A DNA stretch of 64,000 nt from Candidatus Omnitrophota bacterium (GCA_903860135.1 CAIOPG010000008.1:127-64126); one strand, 5' to 3'. Numbered from the stretch's first letter, positions 29,821 to 32,216 are shown. The notes: generated from the sequence alone by a model not told the origin. Made by a program: numbers and translations.

Positions 29821-30489
29821 TCAATAACTCCGGACACAACGCACGCTGTAGATGTTGATCTTATCATTGTTGCCCTCCATGGCCCCAGGGAAGTTCAGGA
29901 GGAAGGCGCGAAAGATATCGTACGCCTTGCCCGCCCAGTAGACGGACGACGCACAACCCAATGCTGTTTTGTTTTCTTGCACAAAAGCCAGGATAGATTT
30001 TCCTGGCAAAACCCAGTCTGTATATCCCCCGTAATCTAAATTGTCACAATAAGACACTGCGGTAGACCATTTTGCATTTGGTGCATCACTCGGCGTTGTC
30101 ATCCAGCCCGGATAACCGACATATACCGCCGTCGTGCCCGTACACGCCTGACCGGCTGTCTTGCCGGCGCAGGGATTAGTCCCACCAGCTATGGCGACAA
30201 ACCCGTAAGTGATAACCGGGCTTGTAGCTGTTTTAACACAAGTCTTCATGCCGTTGGTTATGGAATTATCGTACCATAATGCTCCCACGCTACTGGCATC
30301 ACACGTGAAAGCGGTTGACCCGACCTTGAGCATACGCGACACCCTTAAATCCAAATAATCTCCCGCCGGCGCAGGATAATACGCCGTGAGCGTAAGGCTT
30401 TCAGCAAAAAGCAGACCGGGAAAAACTAAGAGAAGAGAGAGAGAGAGAGAGAGAGAGAGAGAGAAGGAAAATTGTCGACATGGTTTCAT
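29821..30489 (-). CDS. DUF1566 (Lcl C-terminal-like) secreted protein, paralogue 1 of a tandem triplet
   Basis: 222 aa. Its signal peptide MKPCRQFSFSLSLSLSLSLLLVFPGLLFA is encoded by a (GA)n microsatellite. Motifs YTDWVLPGKSIL, YW(S/A), and C-terminal VRCVRSY match DUF1566/Fib_succ-like domains. Confidence 0.65.
   Translation of the reverse strand: MKPCRQFSFSLSLSLSLSLLLVFPGLLFAESLTLTAYYPAPAGDYLDLRVSRMLKVGSTAFTCDASSVGALWYDNSITNGMKTCVKTATSPVITYGFVAIAGGTNPCAGKTAGQACTGTTAVYVGYPGWMTTPSDAPNAKWSTAVSYCDNLDYGGYTDWVLPGKSILAFVQENKTALGCASSVYWAGKAYDIFRAFLLNFPGAMEGNNDKINIYSVRCVRSY
30434..30466. repeat. (GA)~16 dinucleotide microsatellite within the signal-peptide codons of paralogue 1
   Basis: gagagagagagagagagagagagagagagag read directly from the sequence; it encodes SLSLSLSLSL on the minus strand. 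Confidence 0.9.
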
Positions 30490-30614
30490 CGCAGACCTTT
30501 CATTAAAAAATTGATGTGAATTTTAAGCTATTCTTTAGTAACCGCCATCACGCGGGCCAGTAATTCATAACTGAGCTTGTAAATGGGTAAACGCTGATAC
30601 CGCGCCATGGGTTA

Positions 30615-30654
30615 CTTTCTTTTCAAAAACCGTGCGCCCCGCACGAGGCGCACG
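30615..30654 (-). terminator. Intrinsic terminator after DUF1566 paralogue 2 (part of the ~890-bp tandem repeat unit)
   Basis: On the minus strand: 8-bp stem CGUGCGCC/GGCGCACG with an 8-nt loop, followed by GUUUUUGAAAAG. Confidence 0.45.
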
Positions 30655-30680
30655 AACGAAATAATCAAATAACCAAATGA

Positions 30681-31367
30681 TCAATAACTCCGGACACAAC
30701 GCACGAGGTGGATGTCGCTCTTGTTCATGAGGCTGCCGCTCTGGTCGCCATTGGTGAAGTCCTGGATCCAGGCGGCCATTTCCGCCAGAGAGTAGTAGTC
30801 AGTGGCCGACCAGTAGAAGGACGACGCACAACCCAATGCAGTTCTGTTGTCGAATAAAAAAGCCAGTATAGATTTTCCTGGCAAAACCCAGTCTGTATAT
30901 CCCCCCTCAACTAAATTGTTACAATAAGACACTGCGGCAGACCAGTTTGCATTTGGTGCATCGCCATCGCTCGGCGTTGTCATCCAGCCCGGATAACCGA
31001 CATATACCGCCGTCGTGCCCGTACACGCCTGACCGGCTGTCTTGCCGGCGCAGGGATTATTAGTGCTACTCCCACCACCTATGGCGACAAACCCGTAAGT
31101 AATAACCGGGCTTGTCGCTGTTTTAACACAAGCCTTCATGCCGTTGGTTATGGAATTATCGTACCATAATGCTCCCACGCTACTGGCATCACACGTGAAA
31201 GCGGTTGACCCAACCGTTAGTTTCCGCGACACCCTCATATTCAGATAATCCCCCACCGGCGCAGGATAATACGCCGTGAGCCTCAGGCTTTCAGCAAAAA
31301 GTAGACCGGGAAAAACTAAGAGAAGAGATAGAGAGAGAGAGAAGGAAAATTGTCGACATGGTTTCAT
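30681..31367 (-). CDS. DUF1566 (Lcl C-terminal-like) secreted protein, paralogue 2
   Basis: 228 aa and ~85% identical to paralogue 1. The signal peptide has a shorter SL repeat (FSFSLSLSLLLVFPG), encoded by an interrupted (GA)n tract at 31321-31344. Confidence 0.65.
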   Translation of the reverse strand: MKPCRQFSFSLSLSLLLVFPGLLFAESLRLTAYYPAPVGDYLNMRVSRKLTVGSTAFTCDASSVGALWYDNSITNGMKACVKTATSPVITYGFVAIGGGSSTNNPCAGKTAGQACTGTTAVYVGYPGWMTTPSDGDAPNANWSAAVSYCNNLVEGGYTDWVLPGKSILAFLFDNRTALGCASSFYWSATDYYSLAEMAAWIQDFTNGDQSGSLMNKSDIHLVRCVRSY

Positions 31368-31503
31368 CGCAGACCTTTCATTAAAAAATTGATGTGAATT
31401 TTAAGCTATTCTTTAGTAACCGCCATCACGCGGGCCAGTAATTCATAACTGAGCTTGTAAATGGGTAAATGCTGATACCGCGCCATGGGTTACTTTCTTT
31501 TCA

Positions 31504-31542
31504 AAAACCGTGCGCTCCGCACGGGGCGCACGAACGAAATAA
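31504..31542 (-). terminator. Intrinsic terminator after DUF1566 paralogue 3 (repeat-unit copy)
   Basis: Near-identical copy of the 30615-30654 hairpin with one stem mismatch, followed by a U-tract. Confidence 0.4.
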
Positions 31543-31558
31543 TCAAATAACCAAATGA

Positions 31559-32216
31559 TCAATAACTCCGGACACAACGCACGAAGAGGACCGAGCTCTT
31601 GTCTCTGGTAAAGCAGCTGTTGTCGAAGTTGAAATCCACGGCCCAGGCATGGTTGGGATAGGACTCAGAGGCCGACCAGTAGGAGGACGGCCTACAACCC
31701 AAAGCAGTGTTGTTGTCGAACAAAAAAAACAGGATAGATTTTCCTGGCAAAACCCAGTCTGTATATCCCCCGTAATCTAAATTGTTACAATAAAAAACTG
31801 CGGTAGACCAGTCTTCATCTTGTGCATCGCTCGGCGTTGTCATCCAGCCCGGATAACCGACATATACCGCCGTCGTACCATCACACGCCTGACCTGCCGT
31901 CTTACCCGCGCAAGGATTAGTGCTACTCCCTCCTACGGACACCCACCCATAGGTTGTTGGGCTCAAGGCTGTCTTGACACAGGCTTTCGTGCCGTTGGTT
32001 ATGGAATTGTCGTACCATAGTGCTCCCACGCTACTGGCATCACACGTGAAAGCGGTTGACCCAACCGTTAGTTTCCGCGACACCCTCATATCCAGATAAT
32101 CCCCCGCCGGCGAAGGATAATAGGTCGTGAGTGTGAGGCTTTCAGCAAAAAGCAGGCCGGGAAAAACTAAGAGAAGAGAGAGAGAGAGAGAGAGAAAATT
32201 GTCGACATGGTTTCAT
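31559..32216 (-). pseudogene. DUF1566 paralogue 3, frame-shifted in or next to the (GA)n tract (ATG at 32216 is out of frame with the body)
   Basis: The conserved start ATGAAACCATGTCGACAATTTTCT at 32216 is followed by the (GA)n tract at 32171-32195. The sequence after the tract reads GAGAAAATT, versus GAGAAGGAAAATT in copies 1 and 2 (4 nt fewer). The track only finds an ORF restarting at MRVSRKLTV. Confidence 0.5.

What the first reader, a model, noticed from the sequence alone, without database searches (positions are those of the whole stretch)
29821..32216. Tandem triplet of DUF1566 secreted proteins whose signal-peptide codons are a (GA)n microsatellite - candidate translational phase variation
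**Seen in sequence.** Three ~890-bp tandem repeat units each carry a gene for a ~220-aa secreted DUF1566/Lcl-like protein. Each unit also includes its intergenic promoter region and a hairpin terminator. In every copy the hydrophobic core of the signal peptide (FSFSLSLSL...LLVFPG) is encoded by a GA dinucleotide repeat of different length. Copy 1 has (GA)~16, copy 2 has an interrupted ~(GA)10, and copy 3 has ~(GA)11 plus a 4-nt difference. Copies 1 and 2 differ by 12 nt (in frame), whereas copy 3 is out of frame.

**Established analogy.** Dinucleotide slippage shifts the frame unless it occurs in units of three. This is the same logic as the CTCTT repeats in the signal-peptide region of Neisseria opa genes.

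**Inference.** I am not aware of a multicopy surface-protein family with an SSR-encoded signal peptide outside classical pathogens. If confirmed, this would be an ON/OFF and length-variable surface antigen system in an environmental anaerobe.
Basis: partly seen in the sequence, partly recalled or inferred. Interest (0 to 1): 0.8.

Follow-up and report, generated by a model that had tools for sequence, protein, structure and literature searches.

The report
Repeat-switched secreted lectin genes in Omnitrophota
An uncultured freshwater anaerobe (phylum Omnitrophota) carries a small family of secreted lectin-like genes, each with a slippery TC/GA repeat in its export-signal codons, and the repeat length differs between otherwise identical genomes so that genes flip in and out of frame, the on/off trick best known from Helicobacter and Neisseria.

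Summary
Three tandem minus-strand genes for about 220-aa Lcl_C (DUF1566) proteins each carry a (TC)n tract, (GA)n on the + strand, in the signal-peptide codons. The perfect runs are 15, 6 and 10 units. Copies 1 and 2 are in frame, and copy 3 is one unit short.

The phase-variation reading is supported by comparison with other assemblies of the same organism:
- One 12.5-kb locus has 0 mismatches to the window; its only difference is one TC unit in copy 1, which switches that gene OFF.
- Other assemblies carry copy 2 at +1 unit, copy 3 at -1 and +2 units, and an unlinked paralogue at +1 unit. Every change is a multiple of 2 nt.
- Both out-of-frame readings stop within 28 codons, while the downstream ORFs stay intact.

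Two ATGs in different frames precede each tract (as in H. influenzae licA), so the switch may have three states.

The closest precedent is the CT-repeat switch in the signal-peptide region of H. pylori oipA. The mechanism is therefore known. What is new is the host (Omnitrophota, by neighbour-gene homology), the protein family and the multi-locus layout.

No read-level heteroplasmy, expression or export data could be obtained.

The parts
29821..30489 (-). Copy 1 gene, 222 aa: signal peptide, conserved N-terminal module and Lcl_C domain. In frame with ATG1 (ON) in this window.
   Evidence: ORF. Lcl_C scores 31.5 bits, E 2.4e-7, below the gathering score. In L001 the same gene is one TC unit shorter and out of frame.
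30435..30464 (-). Copy 1 microsatellite: perfect (GA)15 on the + strand, (TC)15 in the mRNA, encoding the (SL)n core of the signal peptide.
   Evidence: TRF gives the imperfect extent as 30429-30464. The tract is (TC)14 in L001, and this is the only difference in 12.5 kb.
30479..30501 (-). Copy 1 translation start region: GAAAGG Shine-Dalgarno-like motif (30496-30501), ATG1 (30487-30489) and out-of-frame ATG2 (30479-30481).
   Evidence: Frame relations.
30681..31367 (-). Copy 2 gene, 228 aa. In frame with ATG1 (ON).
   Evidence: ORF. Lcl_C scores 41.7 bits, E 1.6e-10, above the gathering score. Alleles P0001 and L006 have +1 TC unit and read from ATG2.
31319..31342 (-). Copy 2 microsatellite, interrupted: (TC)6 TA (TC)2 in the mRNA. 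The perfect run is at 31331-31342.
31357..31379 (-). Copy 2 start region: SD-like motif 31374-31379, ATG1 31365-31367, ATG2 31357-31359.
31559..32216 (-). Copy 3 gene, OFF in this window. Neither ATG1 nor ATG2 is in frame with the intact downstream ORF; the 176-aa ORF runs from an internal Met.
   Evidence: Lcl_C scores 47.4 bits. Intact alleles P0002 (-1 unit) and P0013 (+2 units) exist in other assemblies.
32176..32195 (-). Copy 3 microsatellite: perfect (GA)10 on the + strand.
   Evidence: TRF extent 32170-32195.
32206..32228 (-). Copy 3 start region: SD-like motif 32223-32228, ATG1 32214-32216, ATG2 32206-32208.
30630..30655 (-). Intrinsic-terminator-like hairpin plus T-run after copy 2.
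   Evidence: 11 pairs, 8 of them G-C, followed by TTTTT.
31508..31524 (-). Intrinsic-terminator-like hairpin plus T-run after copy 3.
29845..29934 (-). Hypervariable 3' segment of copy 1, the C-terminal part of the Lcl_C domain. The equivalents are 30705-30809 in copy 2 and 31583-31675 in copy 3.
   Evidence: 37-52% identity with indels, bracketed by 100% conserved sequence. Coordinates.
29696..29780 (.). Degenerate partial copy of the 3' end of fmt, marking the distal edge of the island that holds the array and the BrnT/BrnA pair.
   Evidence: three colinear matches to 33185-33380. The island content differs in L008 and L009.

Best explanation
These genes form a family of SSR-controlled contingency loci. 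Each encodes a small exported lectin-like protein made of a Sec-type signal peptide, a conserved N-terminal module of about 100 aa, and an Lcl_C/DUF1566 domain with a hypervariable C-terminal segment.

MECHANISM
The hydrophobic core of the signal peptide is written as a (TC)n dinucleotide tract. During replication, slipped-strand mispairing adds or removes TC units. (TC)n encodes (Ser-Leu)n in every frame, so the tract itself always reads as signal-peptide core. What changes is the register between the upstream start codons and the downstream ORF.
- With ATG1 in frame (optimal 6-nt spacing from a GAAAGG ribosome-binding motif), the full pre-protein is made.
- With ATG2 in frame (8 nt downstream in the array copies, 7 nt in the unlinked paralogues), a pre-protein with a shorter, less charged N-terminus can be made, probably at a lower level.
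- In the third register both starts hit a stop within 13-28 codons and the gene is OFF.

CONSEQUENCE
At least five loci switch independently, so a clonal population displays a combinatorial mix of lectin variants. The likely selective agents are phages or grazers that recognise these proteins, or changing host or prey surfaces to which they bind.

SHOWN: the tracts, the frames, the early stops, the intact downstream ORFs, and between-assembly length changes in 2-nt steps at near-zero background divergence.
INFERRED: reversibility and a high switching rate, use of ATG2, export and surface location, binding function, and the selective agent.
For: 1. Tracts of 15, 6 and 10 perfect units sit at the same codon positions in all three copies. 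Chance expectation is 0.00.
2. L001 is another assembly of the same locus. Over 12,513 bp it has 0 mismatches and one gap, and that gap is one TC unit in copy 1, (TC)14 against (TC)15. Copy 1 is out of frame there.
3. Allele table, as nt from ATG1 to the TTT (Phe) codon of the conserved VFPG motif just downstream of the tract: copy 1 is 66 or 64; copy 2 is 54 or 56; copy 3 is 52, 50 or 56; paralogue 4 is 59 or 61. Every change is a multiple of 2, and all three registers are observed.
5. OFF alleles keep an intact downstream ORF. P0011 equals the corresponding part of P0013, and P0004 equals the corresponding part of P0016. This argues against decay.
6. The tract is kept as a near-perfect repeat in paralogues that are only 53-69% identical in protein (L002, L003 and L005). 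This argues for selection to maintain it.
7. Both out-of-frame readings terminate after 13-28 codons.
8. Dual out-of-frame ATGs are present in both paralogue types. Two start frames out of three is a documented design in H. influenzae licA (PMC2212159).
9. The same mechanism, a CT dinucleotide repeat in the signal-peptide region, is established for H. pylori oipA (PMC10564699).
10. The N-termini have the shape of a signal peptide: K/R in the n-region, a hydrophobic stretch of 17-23 residues with mean Kyte-Doolittle 1.9-2.3, and LFA|ES at the predicted cleavage site.
Against: - No reads were available, so within-sample heteroplasmy and reversibility are unproven.
- Differences between assemblies could be fixed strain differences or, less likely, assembler choices.
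- The commonest state of each locus recurs in four contigs, so switching may be slow, or the assemblies may not be independent.
- Assemblies of this array are not fully reliable. L004 and L006 show inter-copy chimeras that could be artefacts.
- ATG2 lies 13-14 nt from the SD-like motif, and its array-copy product has no positive charge in the n-region, so 'ATG2-ON' may in practice be OFF.
- Signal-peptide function was judged by inspection only.
- The structure model was unusable (pLDDT 33).
- The mismatch-repair status of the organism is unknown.
Confidence: 0.75

Rival explanations
1. Non-adaptive mutational hotspot. The (SL)n signal-peptide core happens to be encoded by a slippery repeat, and slippage simply inactivates redundant paralogues that are on their way to becoming pseudogenes. 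There is no selected, reversible switch.
For: - Several loci are OFF in most assemblies: copy 3, paralogue 4 and paralogue 5 are each OFF in four contigs.
- A 98% related strain keeps only a remnant 3' end at this site (L008), so the family is dispensable.
- The copy 2 tract is already interrupted by TA, as expected for a decaying repeat.
Against: - OFF alleles carry no other lesions. Their downstream ORFs are identical to those of ON alleles.
- The same locus occurs in different registers (copy 3 at 50, 52 and 56 nt), which means repeated changes rather than a single loss.
- Tracts remain long and perfect in paralogues only 53-69% identical in protein. Neutral repeats of 10-15 units would be expected to degrade over that divergence.
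- Both OFF frames have immediate stops and the dual-ATG layout is conserved.
Confidence: 0.12
2. Sequencing or assembly artefact. Tract lengths differ only because short-read assemblers or PCR stutter miscall dinucleotide repeats, and the real genomes are identical.
For: - All comparison sequences are metagenome assemblies.
- The array does produce apparent chimeras in L004 and L006.
- SSRs are known trouble spots for library PCR (own knowledge).
Against: - The tracts are 12-30 nt, shorter than read length and than the k=141 implied by the contig names, so they are spanned by single reads.
- Differences recur at four loci, in several assemblies made by different pipelines (k141_ contigs, BUCK21-1 scaffolds, ENA+NCBI MAG contigs).
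- No other low-complexity site differs across 12.5 kb; the window's own 8-nt homopolymer runs mostly lie outside this stretch.
- Stutter is a minority signal and would rarely become the consensus.
- Even assembler ambiguity would imply mixed lengths in the reads, which is itself heteroplasmy.
Confidence: 0.07
3. The main diversification system is recombinational or retroelement-based. Gene conversion among the tandem copies, or a diversity-generating retroelement (DGR) acting on the hypervariable C-terminus, generates antigenic variants, and the SSR is incidental.
For: - The hypervariable 3' segment of about 100 nt is bracketed by perfectly conserved sequence.
- Between-strain amino-acid changes concentrate there.
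- L004 copy 2 carries a 65-bp patch identical to copy 1, plus three intergenic swaps, with no other difference in 8.7 kb.
- L006 is a copy 2/3/1 chimera.
- A weak bAvd hit lies next to paralogue 4 in one sample.
- Lcl_C domains are known DGR targets (own knowledge).
Against: - The hypervariable segments differ by indels and are only 37-52% identical. This is unlike DGR variable regions, which align without gaps to a template and differ only at its adenines.
- The window contains no template repeat; each 3' region matches only the other two copies.
- No reverse transcriptase was identified. Only ten ORFs besides the three Lcl_C copies were scanned against Pfam, so this is weak evidence.
- The chimeras may be assembly artefacts.
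- Recombination does not explain the 2-nt frame changes. It is compatible with the SSR switch as a second layer.
Confidence: 0.05

Closest known systems
H. pylori outer-membrane protein genes oipA (hopH), hopZ, sabA and sabB: a CT dinucleotide repeat in the signal-peptide coding region, switched by slipped-strand mispairing
   Same: - The repeat unit is the same (CT/TC).
- The position is the same, at the 5' end of the ORF inside the signal-peptide codons.
- The logic is the same: a translational frameshift gives ON or OFF, with a conserved motif at the end of the signal peptide present only in ON alleles. That motif is FWLHA in OipA and LLVFPGLLFA here.
- Several paralogous loci per genome are affected (PMC10564699; the genes other than oipA, sabA and babA are from own knowledge).
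   Different: - The protein is unrelated: an Lcl_C lectin-like domain, with no Hop porin domain among the Pfam hits.
- The host is an uncultured environmental Omnitrophota bacterium rather than a human pathogen.
- The genes form a tandem array with near-identical promoters.
- A second start codon lies in another frame.
- Switching here is inferred from assemblies and has not been measured.
H. influenzae licA (lic1 locus): a CAAT tetranucleotide repeat with initiation codons in two of the three reading frames
   Same: Start codons in two different frames lie upstream of an intragenic repeat. Two registers give product and one gives none (PMC2212159).
   Different: - The repeat is a tetranucleotide rather than a dinucleotide.
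- The product is a cytoplasmic choline kinase, not an exported protein.
- Use of both start frames was demonstrated experimentally there and is only inferred here.
Neisseria opa genes: a CTCTT pentamer repeat in the signal-peptide coding region
   Same: A multicopy surface-protein family with a pyrimidine-rich repeat in the leader-peptide codons, where each copy switches independently (own knowledge).
   Different: The repeat is a pentamer, the protein is a beta-barrel adhesin, and the copies are dispersed rather than in tandem.
Legionella Lcl (collagen-like adhesin), whose C-terminal domain defines Pfam PF07603
   Same: The proteins share the C-terminal Lcl_C/DUF1566 domain. This supports a binding or adhesion role by analogy.
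   Different: Lcl varies through in-frame collagen-like VNTRs, not a frameshifting SSR (own knowledge). The proteins here have no collagen repeats and a different N-terminal module.

Membership tests
SSR-mediated translational phase-variable (contingency) locus | A long, near-perfect simple sequence repeat inside the 5' coding region, far beyond chance expectation. | tested here: met
   The tracts have 15, 6 and 10 perfect TC units, against 0.00 expected matches. They lie between the start codons and the end of the signal peptide.
SSR-mediated translational phase-variable (contingency) locus | The unit length is not a multiple of 3, so gain or loss of one unit shifts the frame, and out-of-frame alleles terminate early. 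| tested here: met
   The unit is a dinucleotide. Both wrong frames stop after 13-28 codons.
SSR-mediated translational phase-variable (contingency) locus | Tract-length polymorphism in whole units among very closely related genomes, in excess of the background substitution rate. | tested here: met
   L001 against the window shows 0 mismatches in 12.5 kb and one 2-nt indel, in the copy 1 tract. Four of five loci are polymorphic, always in multiples of 2 nt.
SSR-mediated translational phase-variable (contingency) locus | OFF alleles are otherwise intact, so the state is reversible in principle. | tested here: met
   The downstream ORFs of OFF alleles are identical to those of ON alleles: P0011 against P0013, and P0004 against P0016.
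SSR-mediated translational phase-variable (contingency) locus | High-frequency, reversible switching within a clonal population, with corresponding presence or absence of the protein. | not testable with these tools
   There are no reads, no culture, and no transcriptome or proteome. This needs read pile-ups, reporter fusions or single-cell data.
Pfam PF07603 Lcl_C (DUF1566) | The whole-protein score reaches the curated gathering score of 34.9 bits. | tested here: met
   Copy 2 scores 41.7 and copy 3 scores 47.4, so both pass. Copy 1 scores 31.5 (E 2.4e-7), just below, but it is 74-79% identical to the other two.
   None of the three proteins hit any NCBIfam family at E <= 0.1.
Target gene of a diversity-generating retroelement | A template repeat that aligns without gaps to the variable 3' region and differs at adenines, with a reverse transcriptase and Avd nearby. 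| tested here: not met
   The window has no template repeat. The variable regions differ by indels at 37-52% identity. The only related signal is a weak bAvd hit next to an unlinked paralogue in one sample. A retroelement elsewhere in the genome cannot be excluded.
Sec-dependent secreted protein (SPase I signal peptide) | A positively charged n-region, a hydrophobic h-region and a small residue at position -1 of the cleavage site, confirmed by a trained predictor or by experiment. | tested here: inconclusive
   By inspection and hydropathy, the ATG1 forms fit: net charge +2, an h-region with mean Kyte-Doolittle about 2, and LFA|ES at the cleavage site. The ATG2 forms of the array copies have no charge in the n-region. 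No SignalP was available. There is no lipobox Cys.
H. pylori Hop/OipA outer-membrane protein family | Homology to the Hop porin domain. | tested here: not met
   Pfam reports only Lcl_C. The resemblance is in mechanism, not in protein family.

The most novel reading that the evidence does not exclude
An Omnitrophota bacterium uses a multi-locus 'phasome'. Omnitrophota is a phylum of ultra-small cells proposed to live as epibiotic predators or parasites of other microbes (PMC10066038). At least five Lcl_C lectin genes would each have a three-state repeat switch (strong ON, weak ON or OFF, through two start codons), layered on inter-copy gene conversion and a hypervariable binding surface. This would stochastically vary which host or prey glycans the cell can attach to, or which phages can attach to it. 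If so, contingency loci are a general bet-hedging tool of microbe-microbe interactions in the environment, not a speciality of pathogens evading animal immunity.
Probability: 0.3. Interest if true: 0.75.

Novelty: new member of a known kind. Interest (0 to 1): 0.6.

Why it matters
Phase variation through simple sequence repeats has been studied almost entirely in pathogens of animals and humans. A 2025 review says the focus on pathogens 'reflects current knowledge' and names bacteria in environments such as ocean and soil as a gap (PMC11868660). I found no paper that combines Omnitrophota or DUF1566 with phase variation.

Here a textbook-grade contingency locus appears in an uncultured freshwater anaerobe. 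The evidence is comparative: ON and OFF alleles differ by one repeat unit and by nothing else. This gives three things:
- a concrete, testable case in which the selective pressure cannot be an adaptive immune system, and is more plausibly phages, grazers, or host or prey recognition;
- a candidate set of interaction proteins for a phylum whose lifestyle is still debated;
- a simple signature, a (TC)n-encoded (SL)n signal peptide, that can be searched for across metagenomes.

It is also a practical warning. Gene callers truncated or extended these genes differently in every assembly (170, 176, 222, 247 and 249 aa products of the same genes).

Tried and rejected
1. An exact-DNA scan of genome contigs and metagenome contigs with a 31-nt anchor downstream of the tract found no match.
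2. Protein-profile scans of the same two collections found pattern matches, but none was confirmed by tblastn. The family is absent from, or masked in, those collections. All additional alleles came from the protein-cluster route instead.
3. Six of the contig look-ups returned at least one place with gene tables but no DNA (ERZ1426525, ERZ1426828, ERZ1426836, ERZ1426842). For those assemblies, tract lengths were back-calculated from the called proteins.
4. AlphaFold2 on the 7-sequence family alignment gave pLDDT 33 and pTM 0.30, which is unusable, so no fold search was run.
5. A PDB sequence search found no hit at E <= 0.1.
6. The DGR hypothesis was rejected for this window.
7. Rfam found no RNA family in the window, so a riboswitch or leader RNA explanation for the conserved upstream region has no support.
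8. The sigma-70 promoter scan found nothing convincing upstream of the genes. It found only a 9/12 match inside each ORF, at background frequency.
9. Programmed ribosomal frameshifting or transcriptional slippage as a way to read copy 3 was considered and rejected. Both wrong frames hit stops immediately, and dinucleotide tracts are not known slippage sites for RNA polymerase (own knowledge). The DNA-level length differences explain the data.
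Full report
WHAT IS THERE

On the minus strand of the window lie three tandem genes:
- copy 1 at 29821-30489, 222 aa;
- copy 2 at 30681-31367, 228 aa;
- copy 3 at 31559-32216, of which only a 176-aa ORF from an internal Met is open.

Repeat families are spaced 849-890 nt apart. The proteins are 74-79% identical. Their C-terminal halves match Pfam Lcl_C/DUF1566: copies 2 and 3 score above the gathering cut-off and copy 1 just below it. NCBIfam, which includes TIGR02145, gives nothing.

Each gene starts with GAAAGG-N6-ATGAAACCATG, followed by a TC tract and then the conserved sequence TTCTCTTAGTTTTTCCCGG. The perfect tracts are (TC)15, (TC)6 followed by TA and (TC)2, and (TC)10. 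On the + strand these are (GA)n at 30435-30464, 31331-31342 and 32176-32195. A 12-nt TC run is expected 0.00 times in shuffles of the window and occurs 16 times, always in these tracts. No other period-2 microsatellite exists in the 64 kb.

From ATG1 to CCCGG the lengths are 74, 62 and 60 nt. Copies 1 and 2 are in frame. Copy 3 is exactly one TC unit short.
- Only copies 1 and 2 share the 190-nt upstream region (97-100% identical). The upstream region of copy 3 is unrelated beyond about -30.
- Hairpin plus T-run terminators are found after copies 2 and 3 only.

FRAME LOGIC

(TC)n reads as Ser-Leu repeats in every frame, so the tract always encodes a plausible hydrophobic core. What changes is the register between the start codons and the downstream ORF.
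- In the productive register the end of the tract reads CTC TTA GTT TTT CCC GG, which encodes LLVFPG.
- In one wrong register it reads TCT TAG, an immediate stop.
- In the other wrong register a TGA follows ten codons later.
Wrong-frame products are 13-28 aa.

A second ATG lies 8 nt downstream of ATG1, in a different frame. In two unlinked paralogues the equivalent pair is ATGAAATATG, with an offset of 7. Two of the three registers therefore have an in-frame start. In the window, copy 3 is in the one register where neither start is in frame.

IS THE TRACT ACTUALLY VARIABLE?

The family is very rare. The indexed search found only 8 relatives, and the scans of the genome and metagenome contig collections found none. 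However, the 90% identity clusters contain several assemblies of the same organism, and some of their DNA could be fetched.

L001 (ENA ERZ27313599, a 128,154-bp contig) matches window 23821-36335 with 0 mismatches and a single gap over 12,513 bp. That gap is one TC unit in copy 1, (TC)14 against (TC)15. It puts both starts out of frame, and the gene caller there reported only a 170-aa fragment.

The other alleles, measured as nt from ATG1 to the TTT (Phe) codon of the conserved VFPG motif just downstream of the tract:
- Copy 2 is 54 in the window, L001 and L004. It is 56 (+1 unit) in P0001 and L006, which read from ATG2.
- Copy 3 is 52 (OFF) in the window, L001 and L004. It is 50 in P0002 (-1 unit) and 56 in P0013 (+2 units). 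Both of those are in frame with ATG2 and are otherwise intact.
- Paralogue 4, next to rplM/rpsI, is 59 (OFF) in L005 and 61 (ATG2 in frame) in P0003 and P0015.
- Paralogue 5, after ribF, carries (TC)11 and is OFF in all four contigs seen.

Every change is a multiple of 2 nt, and all three registers occur. The contig lengths of 128,154, 128,156 and 128,160 bp equal the sums of the tract differences. OFF alleles have downstream ORFs identical to those of ON alleles. The tract persists as a near-perfect repeat in paralogues only 53-69% identical in protein.

Taken together, this is the signature of localized hypermutation at a maintained SSR. It does not look like chance or simple decay.

What I could not obtain is read-level heteroplasmy within a sample. 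Reversibility and switching rate therefore remain inferred.

OTHER VARIATION IN THE ARRAY

L004 (8.7 kb) differs from the window at only 17 alignment columns, and all of them lie inside the array:
- a 65-bp patch of copy 2 (window 31060-31133) that reads like copy 1;
- three intergenic positions swapped between the two near-identical spacers.

L006 is a 1.3-kb contig from a strain about 94% identical. It holds a single mosaic gene made of copy 2, copy 3 and copy 1 segments. These may be gene conversion or deletion between copies, or they may be assembly chimeras. I cannot separate the two.

The three copies are 85-100% identical over most of their length. A segment of about 100 nt near the 3' end drops to 37-52% identity with indels, and it is bracketed by perfectly conserved sequence. 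Between-strain amino-acid changes also concentrate there.

Lcl_C domains are known targets of diversity-generating retroelements (own knowledge), and a weak bAvd hit sits beside paralogue 4 in one sample. I therefore looked for a template repeat. There is none in the window, and the indel-rich divergence is unlike retroelement mutagenesis. That idea is rejected for this locus.

CONTEXT AND ORGANISM

- Neighbours are fmt, priA, glycosyltransferases, a BrnT/BrnA toxin-antitoxin pair, and HydABC-type [FeFe]-hydrogenase genes. This is consistent with an anaerobe.
- Named homologues of the fmt product, at 56-76% identity, are almost all 'Candidatus Omnitrophica/Omnitrophota bacterium'. That phylum consists largely of ultra-small cells proposed to be predators or parasites of other microbes (PMC10066038).
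- The array and BrnTA form a variable island. Its far edge carries a degenerate partial copy of the fmt 3' end.
- A 98% related strain has only a remnant Lcl_C 3' end at the site, and a 76% relative has unrelated genes there.
- The Lcl_C domain itself is very widespread, with 4,643 representatives at E <= 0.001. The best-scoring hits include giant multi-repeat proteins. The small architecture with this N-terminal module is rare.

MECHANISM AND FUNCTION

Best explanation (confidence about 0.75): slipped-strand mispairing at the (TC)n tract switches each gene independently among three registers. These are ATG1 in frame (full expression), ATG2 in frame (possibly weaker, because the start is 13-14 nt from the ribosome-binding motif and the array-copy product has an uncharged n-region), and OFF. 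The result is a population with a combinatorial repertoire of exported lectin-like proteins.

Export and a binding function are inferred from the shape of the N-terminus and from the Lcl adhesin analogy. The selective agent is conjecture; candidates are phages, grazers, or host or prey recognition.

Rivals:
- a non-adaptive slippage hotspot in decaying paralogues (0.12);
- assembly or sequencing artefact (0.07);
- recombination or a retroelement as the primary diversifier (0.05), which is compatible with the SSR switch as an extra layer.

COMPARISON WITH KNOWN SYSTEMS

The closest system is the CT dinucleotide repeat in the signal-peptide coding region of H. pylori oipA and related Hop genes (PMC10564699). 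It has the same unit, the same position and the same logic, including a conserved end-of-signal motif that marks ON alleles. The two-start-frame layout matches H. influenzae licA (PMC2212159).

The proteins are not members of those families. They are Lcl_C proteins, and the resemblance is mechanistic. The finding is therefore a new member of a known kind of switch. What is new is the setting:
- an uncultured environmental phylum;
- a different protein family;
- a tandem array plus dispersed paralogues under the same control.

I found no paper linking DUF1566 or Omnitrophota with phase variation. A recent review names non-pathogen environments as the knowledge gap (PMC11868660).

VERDICT

- Observation: confirmed.
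- Interpretation: supported by comparative evidence, though not yet by read-level or experimental data.
- Interest: 0.6.

Noticed in passing
window 29696-29780 versus 33185-33380; L008 2100-2450; L009 8949-12652: The array and the BrnT/BrnA pair sit in a variable island bounded by fmt on one side and a degenerate partial copy of the fmt 3' end on the other. A 98% related strain (L008) has only a remnant Lcl_C 3' end plus the same fmt-end copy. A 76% relative (L009) has unrelated genes at the site, including a Wzy_C protein. This suggests integration or rearrangement at the fmt 3' end.
   Followed up: partly
window 31060-31133 and 30592-30646 (against L004 4235-4299 and 4713-4767): The only differences between L004 and the window over 8.7 kb are a 65-bp patch of copy 2 that matches copy 1, and three intergenic sites swapped between units. 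This is either inter-copy gene conversion or an assembly chimera.
   Followed up: partly
L006 1-1342: A contig from a strain about 94% identical carries a single mosaic gene: copy 2 N-terminus with +1 TC unit, copy 3 middle and copy 1 C-terminus, followed directly by the 582-aa gene. The array may be collapsed to one gene in that strain, or this may be a misassembly.
   Followed up: partly
window 29845-29934, 30705-30809, 31583-31675: A hypervariable 3' segment of each gene (37-52% identity, with indels) lies between perfectly conserved blocks, and allelic amino-acid changes between strains concentrate there. This looks like diversifying selection on the Lcl_C binding face. dN/dS was not computed.
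   Followed up: partly
P0006 (Logan contig, 3,058 nt; no DNA fetched): The conserved N-terminal module (MRVSRKLTVGSTAFTCDASS...) is fused there to a different, non-Lcl_C C-terminal domain. The N-terminal module may therefore be a shared anchor or stalk carrying exchangeable tips.
   Followed up: no
paralogue 4 locus in ERZ1426828, compared with L005 3516-3935: An 84-aa gene with a weak bAvd (DGR accessory) Pfam hit lies just downstream of the Lcl_C paralogue in one sample, but it is not called in L005. No reverse transcriptase was seen in either gene table.
   Followed up: partly
window 27854-29602 (-) and 24033-27128 (-): Two large conserved ORFs of 582 and 1031 aa lie directly downstream of the array and have no Pfam domain. 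The 582-aa protein contains a P-loop-like GDTGAGKSE motif and is conserved at the syntenic site in the 76% relative, where it is 581 aa.
   Followed up: no
window 32597-33143 (+) and about 27286-27799 (-): Two toxin-antitoxin pairs flank the array: BrnT/BrnA-like (CopG antitoxin) on one side and PhdYeFM/ParE on the other.
   Followed up: no
window 32399-32422, 30655-30688 and 31533-31566: Two kinds of short tandem repeat. TGAACTTA x3 is a perfect repeat upstream of copy 3. AAATAATC-like repeats of 8 and 16 nt lie immediately after the stop codons of copies 2 and 3, between the stop and the terminator hairpin. Their function is unknown.
   Followed up: no
window 30376-30404, 31266-31294, 32117-32145 (-): A conserved promoter-like match, CTGAAA-17-TATTAT (9 of 12), lies inside each ORF just downstream of the tract. 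Such matches occur at background frequency in the scan, so this is probably chance. It could in principle drive a signal-less product from the internal Met in OFF alleles.
   Followed up: no
window 10001-14000 and 42001-46000: Two stretches have markedly lower G+C (0.41-0.47, against about 0.55 elsewhere), which may indicate horizontally acquired segments.
   Followed up: no
P0022: A 319-aa relative, 45% identical, has a degenerate FLSLSLAFSLIF signal-peptide core and the same TTYYPAPAGSY motif after it. The (SL)n leader may be older and more widespread than the close family found here.
   Followed up: no
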